Below, in pieces: positions 6,409 to 42,828 of a stretch of DNA of 64,000 nucleotides. This DNA is from a phage, in sequence record PZ445489.1. One strand, written 5' to 3'. The translations under genes were made by a program, and so were the position numbers. A model generated the notes under the pieces. It saw only the letters and a list, made by a program, of their open reading frames with translations, had not been told where the DNA came from and searched no databases. The first letter of the stretch is position 1. Each line of letters begins with the position of its first letter.

Positions 6409-7383
6409 TTAATCGTATACTCGCTCTACTATGCACGGGATTACACCACCAGCACGAATTACTCGAATCTGGCAACCGATCTCTAGATCGAGAGAGTTAA
6501 TATAATCAACGTTATTAAGAGTCGCTTTAACAATTGTAGCGTCATCAATAATTACCGGTTCGAAATAACCAACAGGAGTTACTTTACCAGAAGCCCCTAC
6601 CTGCCATTCAACTTTAGTAAGAGTTGTAATCTCGCCTTCTTCATCCTCTTTAATAGCGAATGCCCCACGAGGGAATTTATTAGTCCAGCCTTCTCGGAAG
6701 AATTTGTTGTTGTCATTAATACGAACAACTTTACCGTCCGTCGGAATCCATTTAAAGAAGGAACGCACATTAACAACTGTTAAGAAATCTTCATTCTCTA
6801 GCCAGAGCATATCTTTTAAATATGCTTCTGTAATACCTACAGACTCAGCAGAACATTGGATACCATAAGCAACGAAGATTAAACCACCTTCCCCGATACG
6901 TTGTACGAAATCATCACTATCTTTGAGGTTAATAGCACCAGAGGCAAAGTTACGTTTATTTTCTACTTCTTTTGTAATTAGAACTTCACCAGTGATTTGA
7001 GTAGGTACTTTTTGGGAAATCTTTTTAGGGATGTTCAGCAATCTTACGTTGCTTGTGACATCATTCCCTAGAATACCATTACCACGAGTTAGTGCTTGAA
7101 CAAATTCTCCATTAATATATAACAGAGAAATTGCACAACCATCTAACTTATCAGTTTCTACTTGACCTAATGGGTTAAATGGGGGTTTATCTCCACGATT
7201 ATAATAAACTTTCTGTAAAGAATACATACGATACAGATGTGGAATATCACCCTTAGGCCCGATCTCTTCTTCTAGTGGGAAGCGTTTTACCAGGCAATCA
7301 TACTCCTCATCAGAGATTAAAGACATACCTTGATAATATGCTTCTTGACAGCGTTTAATAAATTCTTTTACATTATTCATCAT
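6409..7383 (-). CDS. ligA: NAD-dependent DNA ligase, N-terminal adenylation subunit
   Basis: KxDG adenylation motif (ETDKLDGCAIS), ligase-like downstream motifs. Confidence 0.8.
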   Translation of the reverse strand: MMNNVKEFIKRCQEAYYQGMSLISDEEYDCLVKRFPLEEEIGPKGDIPHLYRMYSLQKVYYNRGDKPPFNPLGQVETDKLDGCAISLLYINGEFVQALTRGNGILGNDVTSNVRLLNIPKKISQKVPTQITGEVLITKEVENKRNFASGAINLKDSDDFVQRIGEGGLIFVAYGIQCSAESVGITEAYLKDMLWLENEDFLTVVNVRSFFKWIPTDGKVVRINDNNKFFREGWTNKFPRGAFAIKEDEEGEITTLTKVEWQVGASGKVTPVGYFEPVIIDDATIVKATLNNVDYINSLDLEIGCQIRVIRAGGVIPCIVERVYD

Positions 7384-30893: not shown

Positions 30894-31064
30894 ATGAAAT
30901 CAGTTGTAATTATTGGTGTTAACACTCGCGGTATTCGTACTACGAAAATTGTTAAAACTTCTAACGTTGCTGAGATCACTACGAACCCTAAAAAGTTTGA
31001 TTTCGCCAAAGTCTCAGCAGTTATGACAGAACAATCTTTTAACCAAGCGTTAGGAATGAAATAA
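30894..31064 (+). CDS. small hypothetical protein (56 aa, not in ORF track)
   Basis: ATG with GAGAGGAAG RBS directly after promoter. Confidence 0.35.
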   Translation: MKSVVIIGVNTRGIRTTKIVKTSNVAEITTNPKKFDFAKVSAVMTEQSFNQALGMK

Positions 31065-31507
31065 TGGAAGAGAATATTTTAGATGTTTTGCGTAGAGCTT
31101 TGCAGGATTCTAAGTTTAATGGTTCTGATAAAGAAGTCGCTAAAAGCTATCAGACCATAATCGGGGATCTTCAGCGTATTAATAAAGATTTCATCACTTC
31201 TGAACAATTTGTGTCTTATCTCAAAGCTCAACTAAAAAGCATTAACCAGATGAAAGCTAAACTTCATGGTCAAGATCTTGATAGTTATAGCTTGCAGTCC
31301 GCTCAGTATGAGTACATTCTAAATAAGTGGTTGCAGGAGTATCTGCCCCCTCAGTTATCTGATACTGAGATTCGTAAATACTTTGCAGAATTAGTTAAGC
31401 TAAACCCTGGAATTACAAAAGGTATGCTGATGAAAGCGATTAAGGAAGAATTTCCTGGGCGTTATGATGGTGGTACTGCTGCTCAGATTGCTGGTGAATT
31501 TAATTAA
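31064..31507 (+). CDS. GatB/YqeY-domain-like protein
   Basis: C-terminal ...GMLMKAIKEEFPGRYDGGTAAQIAGE resembles YqeY domain. Confidence 0.45.
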   Translation: MEENILDVLRRALQDSKFNGSDKEVAKSYQTIIGDLQRINKDFITSEQFVSYLKAQLKSINQMKAKLHGQDLDSYSLQSAQYEYILNKWLQEYLPPQLSDTEIRKYFAELVKLNPGITKGMLMKAIKEEFPGRYDGGTAAQIAGEFN

Positions 31508-31515
31508 AAATTTAT

Positions 31516-31544
31516 TTGCTAAATGCTTATAAATTCTGTATAAT
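31516..31544 (+). promoter_or_regulatory. early-type promoter driving ORF-free region
   Basis: TTGCTA-17-TATAAT. Confidence 0.55.
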
Positions 31545-32356
31545 ATATTCATAAATTAGAGAACAGCGAGCCGATTACGCTGAACTTGTCTTAATGTAAG
31601 ATGCGTCGAGCACTAAGATTCGTTGAATAGAGTCGGTAGGTTAGTTGTAAAACTAGTACACAGGGGGCGGCAATCCCGGTTAGTGGCTAGAACGTGTAAA
31701 ATGAGGCGTCTGAAACCTCTCCCCTAAACTCTTCTCTAATTTATAAATAGTGGGGTGTGGAAATCACTTATGTAGTAACACTGCCGTCCTAGTATAATTG
31801 GTATTATCAAGCCGTAACTGGTGGAAGATATAGATTCGAATCCTACGGTCGGTAAGAACTGGATAACTGATGCTTTTAACGTAAAAGCTTCCGAGGTTAG
31901 TTGCGCACTGCCTAAACCACGCGGTAGTTGGTTCCAGGCTAACCAACCAGTCTGCTGAATAGTTTTATTACGATTTAACTATGTCCAGGCTAAAGAAGAA
32001 CTTTAGAAGGTATTCTAGGATAGTGAAGTTTTTTCTCCATATCGGAGTAGTTTTTCAAGCTATCCACAAAGTGGGAAATGCTGACATGAGAGATGTCACT
32101 AATGGTGCACAATAGCACAGGTAATTCGCGATAACTCCTGTTGAGTAGCAGCAAAAGGCGGGAAGTCATGACCCCAAGCCTAACCGAGTCCTCAATATAC
32201 CGCAGGACATAACCACTAAGTCACCCTGACTTAAACTGGAAAATAATAGACGTTACTGTATTTTGTCTTGAAATACTTAATGAGTGAGACTTATGACTCT
32301 CCCGGTATCGTCTGTATTTTTAAGAGTTTTTACGAGAGTTCTTAAAAATATTTAAA

Positions 32357-32431
32357 CGGGGTGTAGTCTAAGGGAGAGGCAGGAGTCTTCTAAATTCCTT
32401 TATGCAGGTTCGAATCCTGTCACCTCGGCCA
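32357..32431 (+). tRNA. tRNA-Arg (anticodon UCU)
   Basis: Acceptor CGGGGTG/CACCTCG, anticodon stem GGAGU/AUUCC loop CUUCUAA, T-arm GCAGG-TTCGAAT-CCTGT, encoded CCA. Confidence 0.7.
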
Positions 32432-32465: not shown

Positions 32466-33413
32466 ATGTTTAATACTAAAAATATGAAAGAACTGACTTC
32501 TGAGCAGAAAGTAATTCGTACTATTAAACGTTGGGGTATTGGTGCTGTAGTTGGTTTAGCAGGCTTGATTCTAGCCTTTAATTCATATACTATTGTTTCT
32601 GATGGTACGGTTAAAACCCAAACATTTCTGGGTAAAGTAGATCCTAACCCAGTATTACCAGGTTTCCATCTTGTAAACCCATTTGCATCTTTCGACACTT
32701 TTAGTACAAAAGATATTGCTGTAAAATTAGATAAACTTCAGGTTCCTAGCCAGGATAAGTTTAAATCCACTGTTGACCTGACTGTTATGTTGCAGTTTGA
32801 TGGTTCTAAGGCACCAATTAACCGTATTAACGCAGGTACTCAGGATCAAGCGTTAGACAAATATGTAACTGAAAAATTACTGTCTACTATTCGTGAGTTT
32901 GGTAAGTCTGTACCTAAAGCACAAGATTTGTTTGATGCTAAAATTCAGGCTCAATTGCAAACTGCAATTCAACAGGAAGTTGAAGAGTATGCACGCCCAT
33001 ATGGTTACACAGTTAAGCAGGTATTCCTTCAGGATATTACTTTGCCACCGGTAATCATGGAACAGGTACAGAATACCAAAGTTCGTGAAGAACAGGTTAA
33101 TGCTGCTAAAGCTGAATTAGCTCGTGTTGAACAGGAAGCACAGCAAAAAGTTAAACAAGCAGAAGCAGATCGTGAAGCTCGCAACAACCAAGCTATCGCT
33201 AATGAACGTGACGCAGATGCTAAACTGTACGCAGCTAAGAAAGAAGCTGAAGCTAACGCCGCACTGCAACGTACCATTACTCCTGAGATGATTCGTTGGA
33301 AACAACTGGAAGTCGAAATGATTCGTGCTCAGAAATATCAAGGTGGTGTACCACAGACTGTGGTAGGTACTGGCTACGATGGTCAAATGATCATGGATAT
33401 GCGTAATAAATAA
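32466..33413 (+). CDS. SPFH/band-7 (prohibitin/HflK-like) membrane protein
   Basis: N-terminal TM segment, SPFH-like core, C-terminal Ala/Glu/Gln-rich coiled coil. Confidence 0.6.
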   Translation: MFNTKNMKELTSEQKVIRTIKRWGIGAVVGLAGLILAFNSYTIVSDGTVKTQTFLGKVDPNPVLPGFHLVNPFASFDTFSTKDIAVKLDKLQVPSQDKFKSTVDLTVMLQFDGSKAPINRINAGTQDQALDKYVTEKLLSTIREFGKSVPKAQDLFDAKIQAQLQTAIQQEVEEYARPYGYTVKQVFLQDITLPPVIMEQVQNTKVREEQVNAAKAELARVEQEAQQKVKQAEADREARNNQAIANERDADAKLYAAKKEAEANAALQRTITPEMIRWKQLEVEMIRAQKYQGGVPQTVVGTGYDGQMIMDMRNK

Positions 33414-33437
33414 TATCCGCATGTAACATCTGAAGTA

Positions 33438-33476
33438 AGCCCTGCGTTCCCTGGAGAGCGCAGGGCTTTTCTTTTA
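33438..33476 (+). terminator. rho-independent terminator
   Basis: AGCCCTGCG...CGCAGGGCT hairpin + TTTTCTTTT. Confidence 0.6.
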
Positions 33477-39210: not shown

Positions 39211-39450
39211 CAAAATCTCAGTGCAGAACACGGAGCTAGCAATTCGGAAGTGCTGACTCATGATAAGCTGCCTATGTACTTGCGAAGCGGTCGTGTCCAA
39301 GACTCGGACTCTTGCACTGAAAACAATCAAACATTCTAGCGTGGTTGATGGGGAAACCAGCTTGGCTAGGGCAGAAGCTCGTTCGATTCGAGTGAAAGAA
39401 TGGTTCTCGTAAGTCCGCACAAGTGATAGCAGGTTCGAGTCCTGTCTAGA

Positions 39451-39642
39451 ATGACATATTCTGGAGGTTTTGTGAATTACAAAGAATTAGATCTTTTAGC
39501 AAATAAATTCACAGAGCTATCTGATAACGTTGTATCAAAGGACTCCAACATAGATAATTTTATTACTGAATATCGTGATGGTATAATCTCTAAACAAGAG
39601 TTGTTAGATAAAACGTATAAATATTTAAAGGGGTTCAGCTAA
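39451..39642 (+). CDS. hypothetical protein (63 aa)
   Basis: ORF. Confidence 0.4.
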   Translation: MTYSGGFVNYKELDLLANKFTELSDNVVSKDSNIDNFITEYRDGIISKQELLDKTYKYLKGFS

Positions 39643-39953
39643 ACGGTTAAGCACTGTCCTACTTCGGACAGAGGGAGTAACACGTAGTCTCCCAAACTCC
39701 CCCAAATTTAGATTTCTGCTTCCTAGAGAACGGACTTCTGAATAAACAAGGCGATGAAGTTTCCGGCCGGTTCTAGTCGCTAAAGTCCCTCTAACGGGGC
39801 GTAAGTAAATGAAAGTTTACTTATTATGTAGGTTCCGATAGATCGGCGGGTCTATTCTGGCATTTAAGAGAGGTCTCGCAAACTTCTTTGTCAGCCGTGG
39901 GGTTGGTAGCCTCCAGGTGGCCTACACAATAAGTAAATTTATTAAAAATTCAT

Positions 39954-41093: not shown

Positions 41094-41432
41094 ATTTATA
41101 TAAATTGATGCGAAAATAGCTGCCTAGATACCAGGTGTATGACGTCTACACTAGCAGAGCTACCGAAAAAGAGATCCTCAGGATAAACGTCGTAGCAAAA
41201 TTAGTCTGGTATCCATCAATTTAGTTCACTAAGGTATTAGCTCGACCTAGGACTGGCTGCCAAAAAGCACGATCCCTACAATTCGGGAGAAGTTCTAGAT
41301 TAGTCCACTAGATTCAGCGGCAACTGAATAGTGTATCGGGTTTGCGAGATGACGCAGTTCCTTCCGCTCGAAGCGAAGGTGCTGTAGTTACGCCGAGCTA
41401 ATAGCCTTAGTAAACTTACAGGGGTTAACGCA

Positions 41433-42459: not shown

Positions 42460-42828
42460 AAAATTCTTGAAGTATGCCGGAATCGGTAGACGGGGCTGCC
42501 TAAAAGGTTTATAGGGAACATCCACTCCCTGCAACATACCTCATAAAGCGGCTGAGATAAATGGTCTATCTCGTGAAGGTTCAAGTCCTTCTGCTTCTTG
42601 ATACATCTATGGCTCAAAGTGTAACGGTGCTATTTGATGCTCTTGGTAAGACTTCCCCGACATGCGTTCGGGAGTAAGCTGCTAAGACTAGAGTAGAAGA
42701 GTTTCTGAGAGCCGCCACAATTGAAAATTCGTACTCGTCTTGAGCTGCGTGCAATAGGAGATAACTTGATTAGTATTCTAGAACATGCTAATTGAGGAAG
42801 GTTTCGCTAACCCTGCGAGTTTTCAATT

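What the first reader, a model, noticed from the sequence alone, without database searches (positions are those of the whole stretch)
31545..32356. ~800-nt ORF-free transcribed region downstream of an early promoter, ending in tRNA-Arg
No ORF of 60 aa or more on either strand, yet the region lies directly downstream of a consensus early promoter and terminates at a well-formed tRNA-Arg(UCU). It contains T-arm-like hairpins (for example GATTCGAATCC around 31830) without matching acceptor stems and a near DnaA box (CTATCCACA ~32060). Candidate long structured ncRNA, degenerate tRNA array or processed precursor.
Basis: seen in the sequence. Interest (0 to 1): 0.6.

Follow-up and report, generated by a model that had tools for sequence, protein, structure and literature searches.

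The report
T5 RNAX: large structured phage RNA
The ORF-free stretch is this phage's copy of "RNAX", an ~800-nt non-coding RNA annotated in phage T5 since 2004 but never characterised; comparison shows an elaborate conserved fold with a built-in tRNA look-alike, resembling the giant phage RNAs GOLLD and ROOL in size and setting.

Summary
Window 31551-32356 (+) lies between a T5-type early promoter and tRNA-Arg(UCU), and it has no conserved ORF. It is the ortholog of T5 misc_RNA rnaX ("stable RNA with unknown functions", AY543070), so its existence is already on record. No Rfam family matches it, and I found no paper describing it.

What is new here is the fold. Across 16-19 divergent T5-like phages, 131 proposed base pairs are 92% paired, against 37-44% in shifted controls, and 40 pairs show compensatory changes. 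A covarying long stem carries a tRNA-like cloverleaf at its tip. The acceptor, D and T arms are conserved. The "anticodon" arm is variable, no CCA is encoded, and some phages have a plain hairpin instead.

One hairpin loop holds an invariant palindrome, GUCAUGAC. A second loop holds a palindrome that differs between lineages, which suggests kissing-loop self-association.

Homologs occur in three Demerecviridae lineages and range from about 630 to 1240 nt.

The viable T5 st0 deletion mutant lacks RNAX, so it is dispensable in the laboratory.

Best reading: a processed, modular, ornate non-coding RNA analogous to GOLLD/ROOL but not a member of either. Its function is unknown.

The parts
31516..31549 (+). 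T5-type early promoter: -35 TTGCTA (31516-21), -10 TATAAT (31539-44), ATATT discriminator (31545-49). Homolog of T5 promoter P16-17.
   Evidence: the element recurs several times per locus; PMC7472727.
31551..32356 (+). RNAX transcript, about 800 nt. The 5' end is either the predicted start near 31551 or position 31558, which corresponds to the annotated 5' end of T5 rnaX. The 3' end is the base before tRNA-Arg (inferred RNase P site).
   Evidence: Plus strand is favoured: 91.9% of cells pair on + against 84.0% on -, with 197 G.U cells.
31553..31745 (+). Module A, the optional 5' domain. Its closing helix pairs AAAUUAGAGAA (31553-63) with UUCUCUAAUUU (31733-43). It contains a hairpin CAGCG-AGCCGAUUA-CGCUG (31564-82). 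In T5 and DT571/2 the interior is absent and only the closing helix remains, as a 5'-terminal hairpin. In several Epseptimaviruses an HNH endonuclease ORF takes its place.
31763..31871 (+). P1, a 12-bp interrupted long stem (31763-76 pairing with 31858-71). It encloses a conserved internal loop (AACACUG / AAGA) and the tRNA-like domain.
   Evidence: 99.1% of cells paired; 7 of 12 pairs show compensatory changes; the stem is found by covariance model in Proteus phage PM135.
31783..31854 (+). tRNA-like cloverleaf mimicking the tRNA elbow. It has an acceptor stem with a conserved U.U mismatch, a D arm with GG, and a T arm with UUCGAAU. The 'anticodon' arm is only 3 bp with a 6-nt loop. No CCA is encoded.
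   Evidence: 22.3 bits, below the gathering score of 29; 38.3 bits in T5.
31872..31888 (+). Hairpin GCUUUUA-ACG-UAAAAGC, which covaries with GCUUAU..AUAAGC, GCUUC..GAAGC, GGUUC..GAACC and GCGUA..UACGC in other lineages.
   Evidence: helix 7.
31889..32041 (+). Domain II, a variable region that is swapped between lineages. It contains the hairpin GUUGGUU-CCAGGCU-AACCAAC (31927-47). Its overall fold is unresolved.
32042..32241 (+). Domain III, a multi-helix junction closed by UCGG (32042-45) pairing with CCGA (32184-87). It contains hairpin 32082-98, hairpin 32188-208 and the invariant stretch AACCAC..AGUCACCCUGACUUAAACUGGAA (32211-41).
   Evidence: helices 8-17.
32117..32141 (+). Hairpin ACAGG-[15-nt loop]-CCUGU. 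The loop carries the palindrome UCGCGA (32126-31). Other lineages have a different palindrome at this loop: CGCGCG, CUCGAG, UCCGCGGA or GUGCGCAC. Candidate symmetric kissing loop.
   Evidence: Fisher p about 0.011; criterion taken from PMC12286853.
32160..32175 (+). Hairpin GG-AGUCAUGA-CC. The palindrome GUCAUGAC (32165-72) is invariant in every homolog, and the lower stem covaries. The 8-mer occurs only once in the 64-kb window.
32242..32313 (+). Domain IV, a small multi-hairpin domain closed by GACG/CGUC. It exists in two sequence versions with the same architecture.
   Evidence: helices 18-21.
32314..32351 (+). 3'-terminal hairpin with a stem of about 17 bp. Its sequence is about 93% conserved even in Pectobacterium phage DU_PP_V. 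It always ends the RNA, lying just before tRNA-Arg or before an inserted ORF.
   Evidence: H90; helix 22.
32357..32431 (+). tRNA-Arg(UCU) with encoded CCA. Inferred to define the 3' end of RNAX through RNase P cleavage.
32466..33413 (+). Band_7/SPFH membrane-protein gene, in the same transcription unit.
33437..33468 (+). Intrinsic terminator that ends the promoter-RNAX-tRNA-SPFH unit.
   Evidence: T5 annotation: efficient bidirectional terminator.

Best explanation
The region encodes the SP15-lineage ortholog of bacteriophage T5 RNAX, a large, modular, highly structured non-coding RNA about 800 nt long in this window and 630-1240 nt in relatives.

Shown or directly supported: host RNA polymerase would start at a T5 early-class promoter. 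The unit continues through tRNA-Arg(UCU) and an SPFH gene to a terminator. The RNA between promoter and tRNA folds into at least 22 helices whose pairing is maintained by compensatory substitutions. These include a long stem (P1) that displays a tRNA-like L-shape mimic at its tip. There are terminal hairpins at both ends.

Inferred: RNase P cleavage 5' of tRNA-Arg releases RNAX. The terminal hairpins make it stable, consistent with the 'stable RNA' label in GenBank.

Proposed mechanism (probability about 0.3): RNAX acts in trans as an RNA scaffold or particle. It would self-associate through two palindromic hairpin loops, the invariant GUCAUGAC and the lineage-variable UCGCGA/CGCGCG/CUCGAG/CCGCGG/GUGCGCAC. 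It would present a tRNA elbow to factors that recognise tRNA shape rather than the anticodon, such as RNase P, CCA-adding or T-loop-modifying enzymes, or the ribosome. On this view it is a functional analog of the GOLLD and ROOL phage RNAs found beside tRNA islands.

The function is accessory, because the viable T5 st0 deletion mutant lacks RNAX.
For: Identity: the region is 92.7-96% identical to the annotated rnaX of T5 and DT571/2, in the same position. rnaX is also annotated in Salmonella phage 5.

Non-coding: no ORF is conserved.

Structure: on alignment A2 (19 sequences), 36 pairs are 91.8% paired against 33-42% in shifted controls, 19 pairs are compensatory against 1-6, and 0 of 500 shuffles reach the observed values. 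On alignment A1 (16 sequences, 54-99% identical), 131 pairs in 22 helices are 91.9% paired against 37-44%, and 40 pairs are compensatory against 4-11.

Length: the distance from the tRNA-like block to the terminal hairpin stays at about 570-650 nt in most versions even where the interior sequence is replaced.

Strand: plus.

Distant homologs: DU_PP_V and Proteus phage PM135, the latter found by covariance model at 62.7 bits, E 2e-13.

tRNA mimic: the arms that form the elbow are conserved. The anticodon arm varies from 3 bp with a 6-nt loop, to 6 bp with a 3-nt loop, to a long extended arm. It is replaced by a plain hairpin in SH9, Sw2 and PM135. All 23 genuine tRNAs in the window encode CCA and this element does not.

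Palindromic loops. The same signature marks the symmetric kissing loops of OLE and GOLLD (PMC12286853).

Context parallel: GOLLD and ROOL are phage RNAs often found near tRNA islands, and GOLLD sometimes has tRNAs in its linker region.

Dispensability: the st0 deletion removes this region, and deletions in the T5 tRNA region are described as non-essential (PMC11464382).
Against: No expression or end-mapping data were available. I could not locate the experimental basis of the 'stable RNA' label.

The minimum-free-energy z-score is not significant (-0.55).

The sequences are phylogenetically related, and parts of the structure were derived from the same alignment that was then scored. The counts are therefore optimistic.

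Domain II and all long-range or pseudoknot contacts are unresolved.

The palindrome test is post hoc and modest (p about 0.011, treating lineages as independent).

Palindromes could also be DNA-level sites.

In some Epseptimaviruses the core is flanked by ORFs, so it might remain part of an mRNA.

The Rfam GOLLD and ROOL models do not match.
Confidence: 0.85

Rival explanations
1. It is a purely cis-acting leader or processing platform. On this view the structured RNA only directs maturation, stability or expression of the co-transcribed tRNA-Arg and SPFH mRNA, and is then discarded without any trans function.
For: It lies in the same transcription unit as tRNA-Arg and the SPFH gene. The terminal hairpin always abuts the next gene, whether tRNA or ORF, and is unusually conserved at the sequence level. 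The tRNA-like domain could act as an internal RNase P signal.
Against: A length of 630-1240 nt with at least 22 conserved helices is far more than any known bacterial processing signal needs. Invariant loops are conserved across three Demerecviridae lineages whose downstream genes differ: an SPFH gene in T5, other ORFs in DU_PP_V and PM135. T5 annotators call it a stable RNA.
Confidence: 0.12
2. It is a tRNA-mimic decoy. On this view RNAX sequesters or diverts a host tRNA-targeting defence nuclease or a tRNA-binding factor, extending the known counter-defence role of T5 tRNAs.
For: T5 tRNA-Lys neutralises the PARIS defence system (PMC11464382), and T5 tRNA-Tyr rescues the toxicity of retron Eco7 (cited in PMC10644984). 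RNAX sits in the same accessory tRNA region and carries a conserved tRNA elbow.
Against: The known defence nucleases recognise the anticodon loop. That is exactly the part that is degenerate and variable here. Several phages lack the tRNA-like domain yet keep the rest of RNAX, so the mimic cannot be the core function.
Confidence: 0.12
3. It is a degenerate tRNA array, that is, decaying remnants of former tRNA genes with no function of their own.
For: The region lies at the edge of a 23-tRNA cluster. One element resembles a tRNA and is variously annotated as pseudo, OTHER, Ser or Sec.
Against: There is only one tRNA-like element. The other roughly 700 nt have no tRNA similarity. Non-tRNA helices covary strongly. 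The tRNA-like element is itself under purifying selection for its acceptor, D and T arms and is embedded in covarying stem P1.
Confidence: 0.02
4. It encodes small proteins. GenBank records for some relatives annotate hypothetical CDSs of 34-60 aa here.
For: ORFs of 34, 44, 45, 59 and 60 aa exist, and homologous ORFs are annotated as CDS in phages Baret and PMBT29 and in Klebsiella phages.
Against: Every one of these ORFs has stops, frameshifts or a lost start codon in homologs, including T5 itself.
Confidence: 0.02
5. It is a DNA-level element, such as an origin or DnaA site, a protein operator at the palindromes, or a landing pad for homing endonucleases.
For: There is a near-DnaA box at 32060-68. 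GC-rich palindromes are present. HNH and other ORFs are inserted at the module boundaries in relatives.
Against: The DnaA-like 9-mer is not conserved. Compensatory changes that pass through G.U intermediates (197 G.U cells) and the strand asymmetry point to selection on RNA rather than DNA.
Confidence: 0.03

Closest known systems
Bacteriophage T5 RNAX (misc_RNA rnaX in AY543070; also annotated in DT571/2 NC_047749 and Salmonella phage 5 AJ604531)
   Same: It is orthologous. It occupies the same position between promoter P16-17 and tRNA-Arg(UCU), and the core is 92.7-96% identical.
   Different: The window copy has an extra ~165-nt interior in 5' module A that T5 lacks. T5 has an 83-nt insertion that duplicates the AGUCACCUUGAC.UAAACUGGAA motif. 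The window's tRNA-like T stem has two A.C mismatches, so tRNA finders miss it.
GOLLD RNA (Rfam family; Weinberg 2009; cryo-EM in Kretsch 2025, PMC12286853)
   Same: Both are phage-encoded, several hundred to more than 800 nt long, ornate multi-helix folds supported by covariation, and located beside tRNA islands. Both have a variable 5' part and a more conserved 3' part, and both can carry a tRNA or tRNA-like unit in a variable region. GOLLD uses palindromic symmetric kissing loops.
   Different: RNAX does not match the GOLLD covariance model even at E up to 10. The helices and conserved motifs are different. The hosts are Enterobacterales and the phages are virulent Demerecviridae. Oligomerisation of RNAX is untested.
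ROOL RNA (Weinberg 2017, PMC5737381; Kretsch 2025)
   Same: ROOL has a similar size (mean 581 nt), occurs in phages and prophages near tRNAs, has unknown function, and forms an RNA-only assembly through kissing loops.
   Different: RNAX does not match the ROOL model. The architecture is different, and ROOL has no embedded tRNA-like domain.
Bacterial Y RNA YrlA and other tRNA-like modules (my own knowledge: Chen et al. 2014; Wang et al. 2018)
   Same: In both, a non-decoding tRNA elbow mimic with conserved D/T-loop features is carried on a longer helical RNA.
   Different: In YrlA the mimic joins the rest of the RNA through the anticodon-stem side. In RNAX it joins through the acceptor stem. 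No Rfam Y-RNA hit was found. RNAX is 6-10 times larger.
tRNA-directed 3'-end formation of long non-coding RNAs (MALAT1/mascRNA) and the small stable RNAs of the phage T4 tRNA cluster (my own knowledge)
   Same: A non-coding RNA is released from a precursor by RNase P acting on an adjacent tRNA or tRNA-like unit. Phage tRNA clusters also encode other stable RNAs of unknown function.
   Different: RNase P processing is inferred here, not shown. The T4 species are only about 120-140 nt.
HIV-1 dimerisation initiation site (my own knowledge)
   Same: It is a hairpin loop holding a 6-nt GC-rich palindrome that differs between lineages (GCGCGC or GUGCAC) yet always remains a palindrome. The RNAX loop at 32117-32141 shows the same pattern.
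   Different: The virus and RNA are unrelated. This is an analogy for the proposed mechanism only.

Membership tests
T5 RNAX (GenBank rnaX) | Sequence homology to the annotated T5 and DT571/2 rnaX | tested here: met
   91-98% identity over window 31727-32356; 96% to DT571/2.
T5 RNAX (GenBank rnaX) | Location between early promoter P16-17 and tRNA-Arg(UCU), upstream of the Band_7/SPFH gene | tested here: met
T5 RNAX (GenBank rnaX) | Accumulates as a stable RNA in infected cells | not testable with these tools
   This rests only on the GenBank note 'stable RNA with unknown functions'. No paper was found.
tRNA (Rfam RF00005), applied to the element at 31783-31854 | Score at or above the gathering threshold of 29 bits | tested here: not met
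   22.3 bits in the window and no ARAGORN call. The T5, DU_PP_V and MET_P1-88 copies do pass, at 38.3, 38.3 and 33.0 bits.
tRNA (Rfam RF00005), applied to the element at 31783-31854 | 5-bp anticodon stem with a 7-nt loop presenting an anticodon | tested here: not met
   The window has a 3-bp stem with a 6-nt loop. DU_PP_V has 6 bp with a 3-nt loop. Klebsiella phages have a long extended arm.
tRNA (Rfam RF00005), applied to the element at 31783-31854 | Free acceptor end with 3' CCA, which all genuine tRNAs of this phage encode | tested here: not met
   23 of 23 genuine tRNAs encode CCA and this element does not. Its acceptor stem continues into covarying stem P1.
GOLLD RNA | Match to the Rfam covariance model (conserved 3' domain) | tested here: not met
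   No hit at E up to 10 in the window or up to 5 in four divergent homologs.
GOLLD RNA | Large multi-helix fold supported by covariation, phage-encoded and beside a tRNA island | tested here: met
   The definition of the context comes from PMC12286853.
GOLLD RNA | Homo-oligomeric nanocage | not testable with these tools
   Only indirect evidence exists: two palindromic loops.
ROOL RNA | Match to the Rfam covariance model | tested here: not met
tmRNA | tRNA-like domain formed by the two RNA ends, plus a tag reading frame | tested here: not met
   ARAGORN finds no tmRNA. The tRNA-like domain here is contiguous and internal.
Y RNA / YrlA | Match to Rfam Y-RNA-type models; Ro60-binding stem | tested here: not met
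   No Rfam hit. Whether the phage encodes a Ro60 homolog was not examined.

The most novel reading that the evidence does not exclude
RNAX is a third, independent class of giant ornate phage RNA. It would assemble into RNA-only homo-oligomers through two self-complementary kissing loops and display tRNA-like elbows on its surface. On this reading it is an E. coli/T5-tractable counterpart of GOLLD and ROOL, whose biological role is still unknown.
Probability: 0.25. Interest if true: 0.85.

Novelty: new member of a known kind. Interest (0 to 1): 0.6.

Why it matters
T5 is a classical model phage that can be manipulated genetically and grows on E. coli K-12. The functions of the large ornate phage RNAs GOLLD and ROOL, which sit beside tRNA islands, are an open question, and those RNAs come from hosts or metagenomes that are hard to work with.

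If RNAX is a functional analog, it offers several advantages. Viable deletion mutants already exist (T5 st0 and the Glukhov collection). There are hundreds of sequenced natural variants. The RNA has a clear modular architecture. That question would then be directly testable.

More immediately, the result corrects annotations. Many GenBank records place spurious hypothetical CDSs, or pseudo, Ser or Sec 'tRNAs', on this RNA. No Rfam family covers it.

Tried and rejected
1. Rfam scans of the window region and of four divergent homologs returned only tRNA hits. They returned no GOLLD, ROOL, tmRNA, Y RNA, RNase P or intron hit.

2. The minimum-free-energy z-score is uninformative on both strands (-0.55 and -0.77).

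3. The small ORFs are not conserved.

4. The near-DnaA box is not conserved.

5. I considered a partnership with the upstream gene labelled 'tRNA amidotransferase'. Its YqeY match is below the Pfam cut-off (25.4 against 27 bits). The gene is absent from that position in the Klebsiella phages and in DU_PP_V, although a gene with the same label does precede the RNA in PM135. The link is not consistent, so I dropped the idea.

6. Motif scans of IMG/VR, of metagenomes (12 contigs, all T5-like) and of 185,579 bacterial and archaeal genomes (zero hits) found nothing outside T5-like phages. L093 was a chance AT-rich hairpin.

7. The covariance model found no Domain I in the T4-like phage loci that carry an SPFH homolog.

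8. Literature searches for RNAX or T5 stable RNAs in open-access text found no description.

9. A decoy for anticodon nucleases is disfavoured, because the anticodon arm is the least conserved part of the tRNA-like domain.
Full report
WHAT THE WINDOW IS. The window is a T5-like phage (Demerecviridae, Tequintavirus), 99.8% identical to Escherichia phage SP15 across the finding. It carries a cluster of 23 tRNA genes. The finding covers the gap between a 147-aa ORF (31064-31507; weak YqeY match, 25.4 bits, below the Pfam cut-off) and tRNA-Arg(UCU) at 32357-32431.

CHECK OF THE OBSERVATION. The promoter is real by sequence criteria. It reads TTGCTA, 17 nt, TATAAT at 31516-31544, with 10 of 12 consensus matches. 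It is followed by ATATT, the discriminator reported for all known T5 early promoters (PMC7472727). T5 annotates its homolog as promoter P 16-17. The tRNA-Arg is canonical at 49.3 bits. The only strong + strand terminator lies after the downstream Band_7/SPFH gene, at 33437-33468. The transcription unit is therefore promoter, then the ~800-nt region, then tRNA-Arg, then the SPFH gene, then the terminator.

Short ORFs exist, including one of exactly 60 aa on the minus strand. When they are projected onto 12-16 divergent homologs, all of them acquire stops, frameshifts or lose their start codon. The 'near DnaA box' at 32060-32068 is present but not conserved. The GATTCGAATCC motif is the T arm of a full tRNA-like cloverleaf at 31783-31854, which does have an acceptor stem.

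IT IS ALREADY ANNOTATED. In T5 record AY543070 the homologous stretch is misc_RNA rnaX, 'RNAX, stable RNA with unknown functions'. It runs from promoter P16-17 to the tRNA-Arg 5' end. The same annotation appears in DT571/2 and in Salmonella phage 5. Another T5 record marks only a pseudo-tRNA there. Most of the 527 phage records with homologous DNA annotate nothing, a 'tRNA-OTHER/Ser/Sec', or small hypothetical CDSs. I found no open-access paper that describes RNAX, and no Rfam family matches it.

MODULAR ANATOMY. The distance from promoter to tRNA-Arg ranges from 631 nt (DT571/2) and 714 nt (T5), through 779-795 nt (the window's type), to 1000-1471 nt. BLAST shows a mosaic of blocks that are kept, swapped or interrupted. 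However, the distance from the tRNA-like block to a conserved hairpin just before the tRNA stays at about 570-650 nt in most versions, even where the interior sequence is unalignable.

Klebsiella T5-like phages carry a version of about 1.24 kb that is over-annotated with small CDSs. In several Epseptimaviruses an HNH endonuclease ORF replaces the 5' module, and a 169-aa ORF sits between the terminal hairpin and tRNA-Arg.

Homologs exist in two other Demerecviridae lineages. Pectobacterium phage DU_PP_V (Mccorquodalevirinae) has about 980 nt between an early-type promoter and tRNA-Arg. Proteus phage PM135 (Novosibvirus) has a covariance-model hit to Domain I at 62.7 bits, E 2e-13.

Motif scans of IMG/VR, metagenomes and 185,579 prokaryotic genomes found only T5-like phage sequences, or nothing.

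EVIDENCE FOR RNA STRUCTURE. In a 16-sequence alignment (54-99% identical to the window), many hairpins change sequence while keeping their pairing. Three examples:
- GCUUUUA..UAAAAGC, GCUUAU..AUAAGC and GCUUC..GAAGC
- GACAU..AUGUC, CACGU..(A)CGUG and GGCAU..AUGCC
- GUCCU..AGGAC, GUUCU..AGAAC and GCACU..AGUGU

Domain I was scored on 19 sequences that include the Klebsiella and Pectobacterium phages. Its 36 pairs are 91.8% paired, against 33-42% when partners are slid by 1-3 columns. Nineteen pairs show double (compensatory) changes, against 1-6 in the slid controls. None of 500 shuffles reaches the observed values.

The whole core was scored as 131 pairs in 22 helices. These are 91.9% paired against 37-44%, with 40 compensatory pairs against 4-11.

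The 197 G.U cells make the plus strand fit better than the minus strand (91.9% against 84.0%). This agrees with the orientation of the promoter and the tRNA.

The 5' module A is closed by a helix between the first bases of the transcript (31553-63) and 31733-43. In T5 the interior of this module is missing and the closing helix survives as a 9-bp 5'-terminal hairpin. Together with the ~17-bp 3'-terminal hairpin (32314-51), this fits a stable, end-protected RNA.

There are caveats. Part of the structure was derived from the alignment it was scored on. The sequences are related to one another. The single-sequence MFE z-score is not significant. Domain II is unresolved.

THE tRNA-LIKE DOMAIN. It sits at the tip of P1, a 12-bp interrupted stem in which 7 pairs covary, across a conserved internal loop. 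The acceptor stem is conserved, including a U.U mismatch that persists even in DU_PP_V. So are the D arm (with GG) and the T arm (UUCGAAU).

The 'anticodon' arm is short and variable. It is 3 bp with a 6-nt loop in the window, 6 bp with a 3-nt loop in DU_PP_V, and a long extended arm in two Klebsiella phages. In SH9, Sw2 and PM135 the whole cloverleaf is replaced by a plain hairpin on the same P1 stem.

All 23 genuine tRNAs of the window encode CCA, and this element does not. It scores 22.3 bits in the window, below the gathering score, and 38.3 bits in T5.

I read it as an optional tRNA-elbow mimic, probably derived from a tRNA gene. It is neither a decoder nor a pseudogene. Whether RNase P cuts it is unknown.

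PALINDROMIC LOOPS. GUCAUGAC occurs once in the 64-kb window, at 32165-72. It is invariant in every homolog, PM135 included, and always lies in the loop of a hairpin whose lower stem covaries.

A second hairpin (32117-41) has a large A/U-flanked loop with a GC-rich palindrome that differs by lineage:
- UCGCGA in the window
- CGCGCG in T5
- CUCGAG in Sw2 and bobsandoy
- UCCGCGGA in the Klebsiella phages
- GUGCGCAC in SenS3 and 1-23
- only CGCG in S124 and AUAU in DU_PP_V

A shuffle test gives a modest combined p of about 0.011. The test is post hoc and assumes the lineages are independent.

Switching between palindromes in a loop is the signature Kretsch et al. used to support symmetric intermolecular kissing loops in OLE and GOLLD (PMC12286853). 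Two such loops per molecule could build oligomers. This is a hypothesis, not a result.

FUNCTIONAL CONSTRAINTS. The viable T5 st0 deletion mutant (AY692264) has its right deletion end inside the YqeY-like ORF. It lacks RNAX, tRNA-Arg and the SPFH gene. Deletions in the T5 tRNA region are described as non-essential (PMC11464382). RNAX is therefore accessory under laboratory conditions, like the phage tRNAs, some of which are now known to counter host defences.

COMPARISON WITH KNOWN CLASSES. The element is a member of the T5 RNAX lineage by homology and position. It is not a tRNA, tmRNA, Y RNA, GOLLD or ROOL by the tests listed in the membership table.

In what it looks like, it is closest to GOLLD and ROOL. 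Those are phage RNAs of about 0.6-0.8 kb with ornate, covariation-supported folds, found beside tRNA islands, with unknown function. GOLLD sometimes carries tRNAs in a variable linker and has a variable 5' half.

VERDICT. The existence of the RNA is not new, since T5 rnaX was annotated in 2004. Its architecture, its tRNA-elbow domain, its spread across three Demerecviridae lineages and the candidate self-association loops appear not to have been described.

I give 0.85 confidence that this is a structured, processed non-coding RNA. I give about 0.25-0.3 to the specific model of a self-assembling scaffold that displays a tRNA mimic.

Noticed in passing
window 39332-39456, 39826-39928, 41235-41406, 42466-42610, 42611-42717, 42722-42827: Homologs (86-99% identical) of six further small RNAs that the T5 st0 record annotates as misc_RNA with no stated function: rna2, RNAIV, RNA2H, RNA1, RNAI and RNAIII. 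They lie between tRNA genes.
   Followed up: partly
L053 1740-2761; L054 1606-2800; L002 1724-1828 and 2091-2270; L003 1724-2270: GenBank records of Klebsiella phages Boggle_ER46 and Roth39 and of phages Baret and PMBT29 annotate small hypothetical CDSs on top of RNAX. The window-equivalent ORFs are not conserved, and the Klebsiella ones overlap structured RNA, so they are probably spurious.
   Followed up: partly
L058 1017-1496; L051 717-1199; L027 2875-3384: Mobile-looking ORFs sit at the module boundaries of RNAX in Epseptimaviruses. An HNH endonuclease of about 160 aa replaces 5' module A. A 169-aa ORF with no Pfam match lies between the terminal hairpin and tRNA-Arg.
   Followed up: partly
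window 32314-32351; L092 2501-2541: The 3'-terminal hairpin is about 93% identical at the nucleotide level between Markadamsvirinae and Pectobacterium phage DU_PP_V, although the rest of the RNA has diverged beyond BLAST detection. Pairing alone does not require such sequence conservation, so it suggests a protein or RNase recognition site.
   Followed up: no
L005 2010-2075 (T5): T5 carries an 83-nt insertion that duplicates the invariant motif AGUCACCUUGAC(U/A)UAAACUGGAA and adds a hairpin.
   Followed up: no
window 31064-31507: The upstream gene is labelled 'tRNA amidotransferase' or 'recombination related exonuclease' in RefSeq and GenBank. It has only a sub-threshold, C-terminal YqeY match (25.4 bits against a cut-off of 27), so both names are weakly founded.
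   Followed up: partly
L109 7430-7766 (Proteus phage PM135): A second early-type promoter (TTGCTA..TATAAT) is followed by about 290 nt without an ORF, up to tRNA-Tyr. The tRNAs of this record are not annotated at all.
   Followed up: no
L038-L045 (contigs of 142-180 kb): The Band_7/SPFH protein downstream of RNAX has homologs 76-80% identical in much larger contigs, which are probably T4-like phages. This suggests the gene has been exchanged between phage families. No RNAX Domain I was found in those loci.
   Followed up: partly
L109 6686 versus 6739-6850: In PM135 the GUCAUGAC hairpin lies upstream of Domain I, whereas in T5-like phages it lies downstream. The domain order therefore appears rearranged between lineages.
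   Followed up: no
BF23 (literature only): Phage BF23 is reported to lack tRNA-Arg (PMC10644984). I did not check whether it also lacks RNAX, which would be a natural deletion.
   Followed up: no
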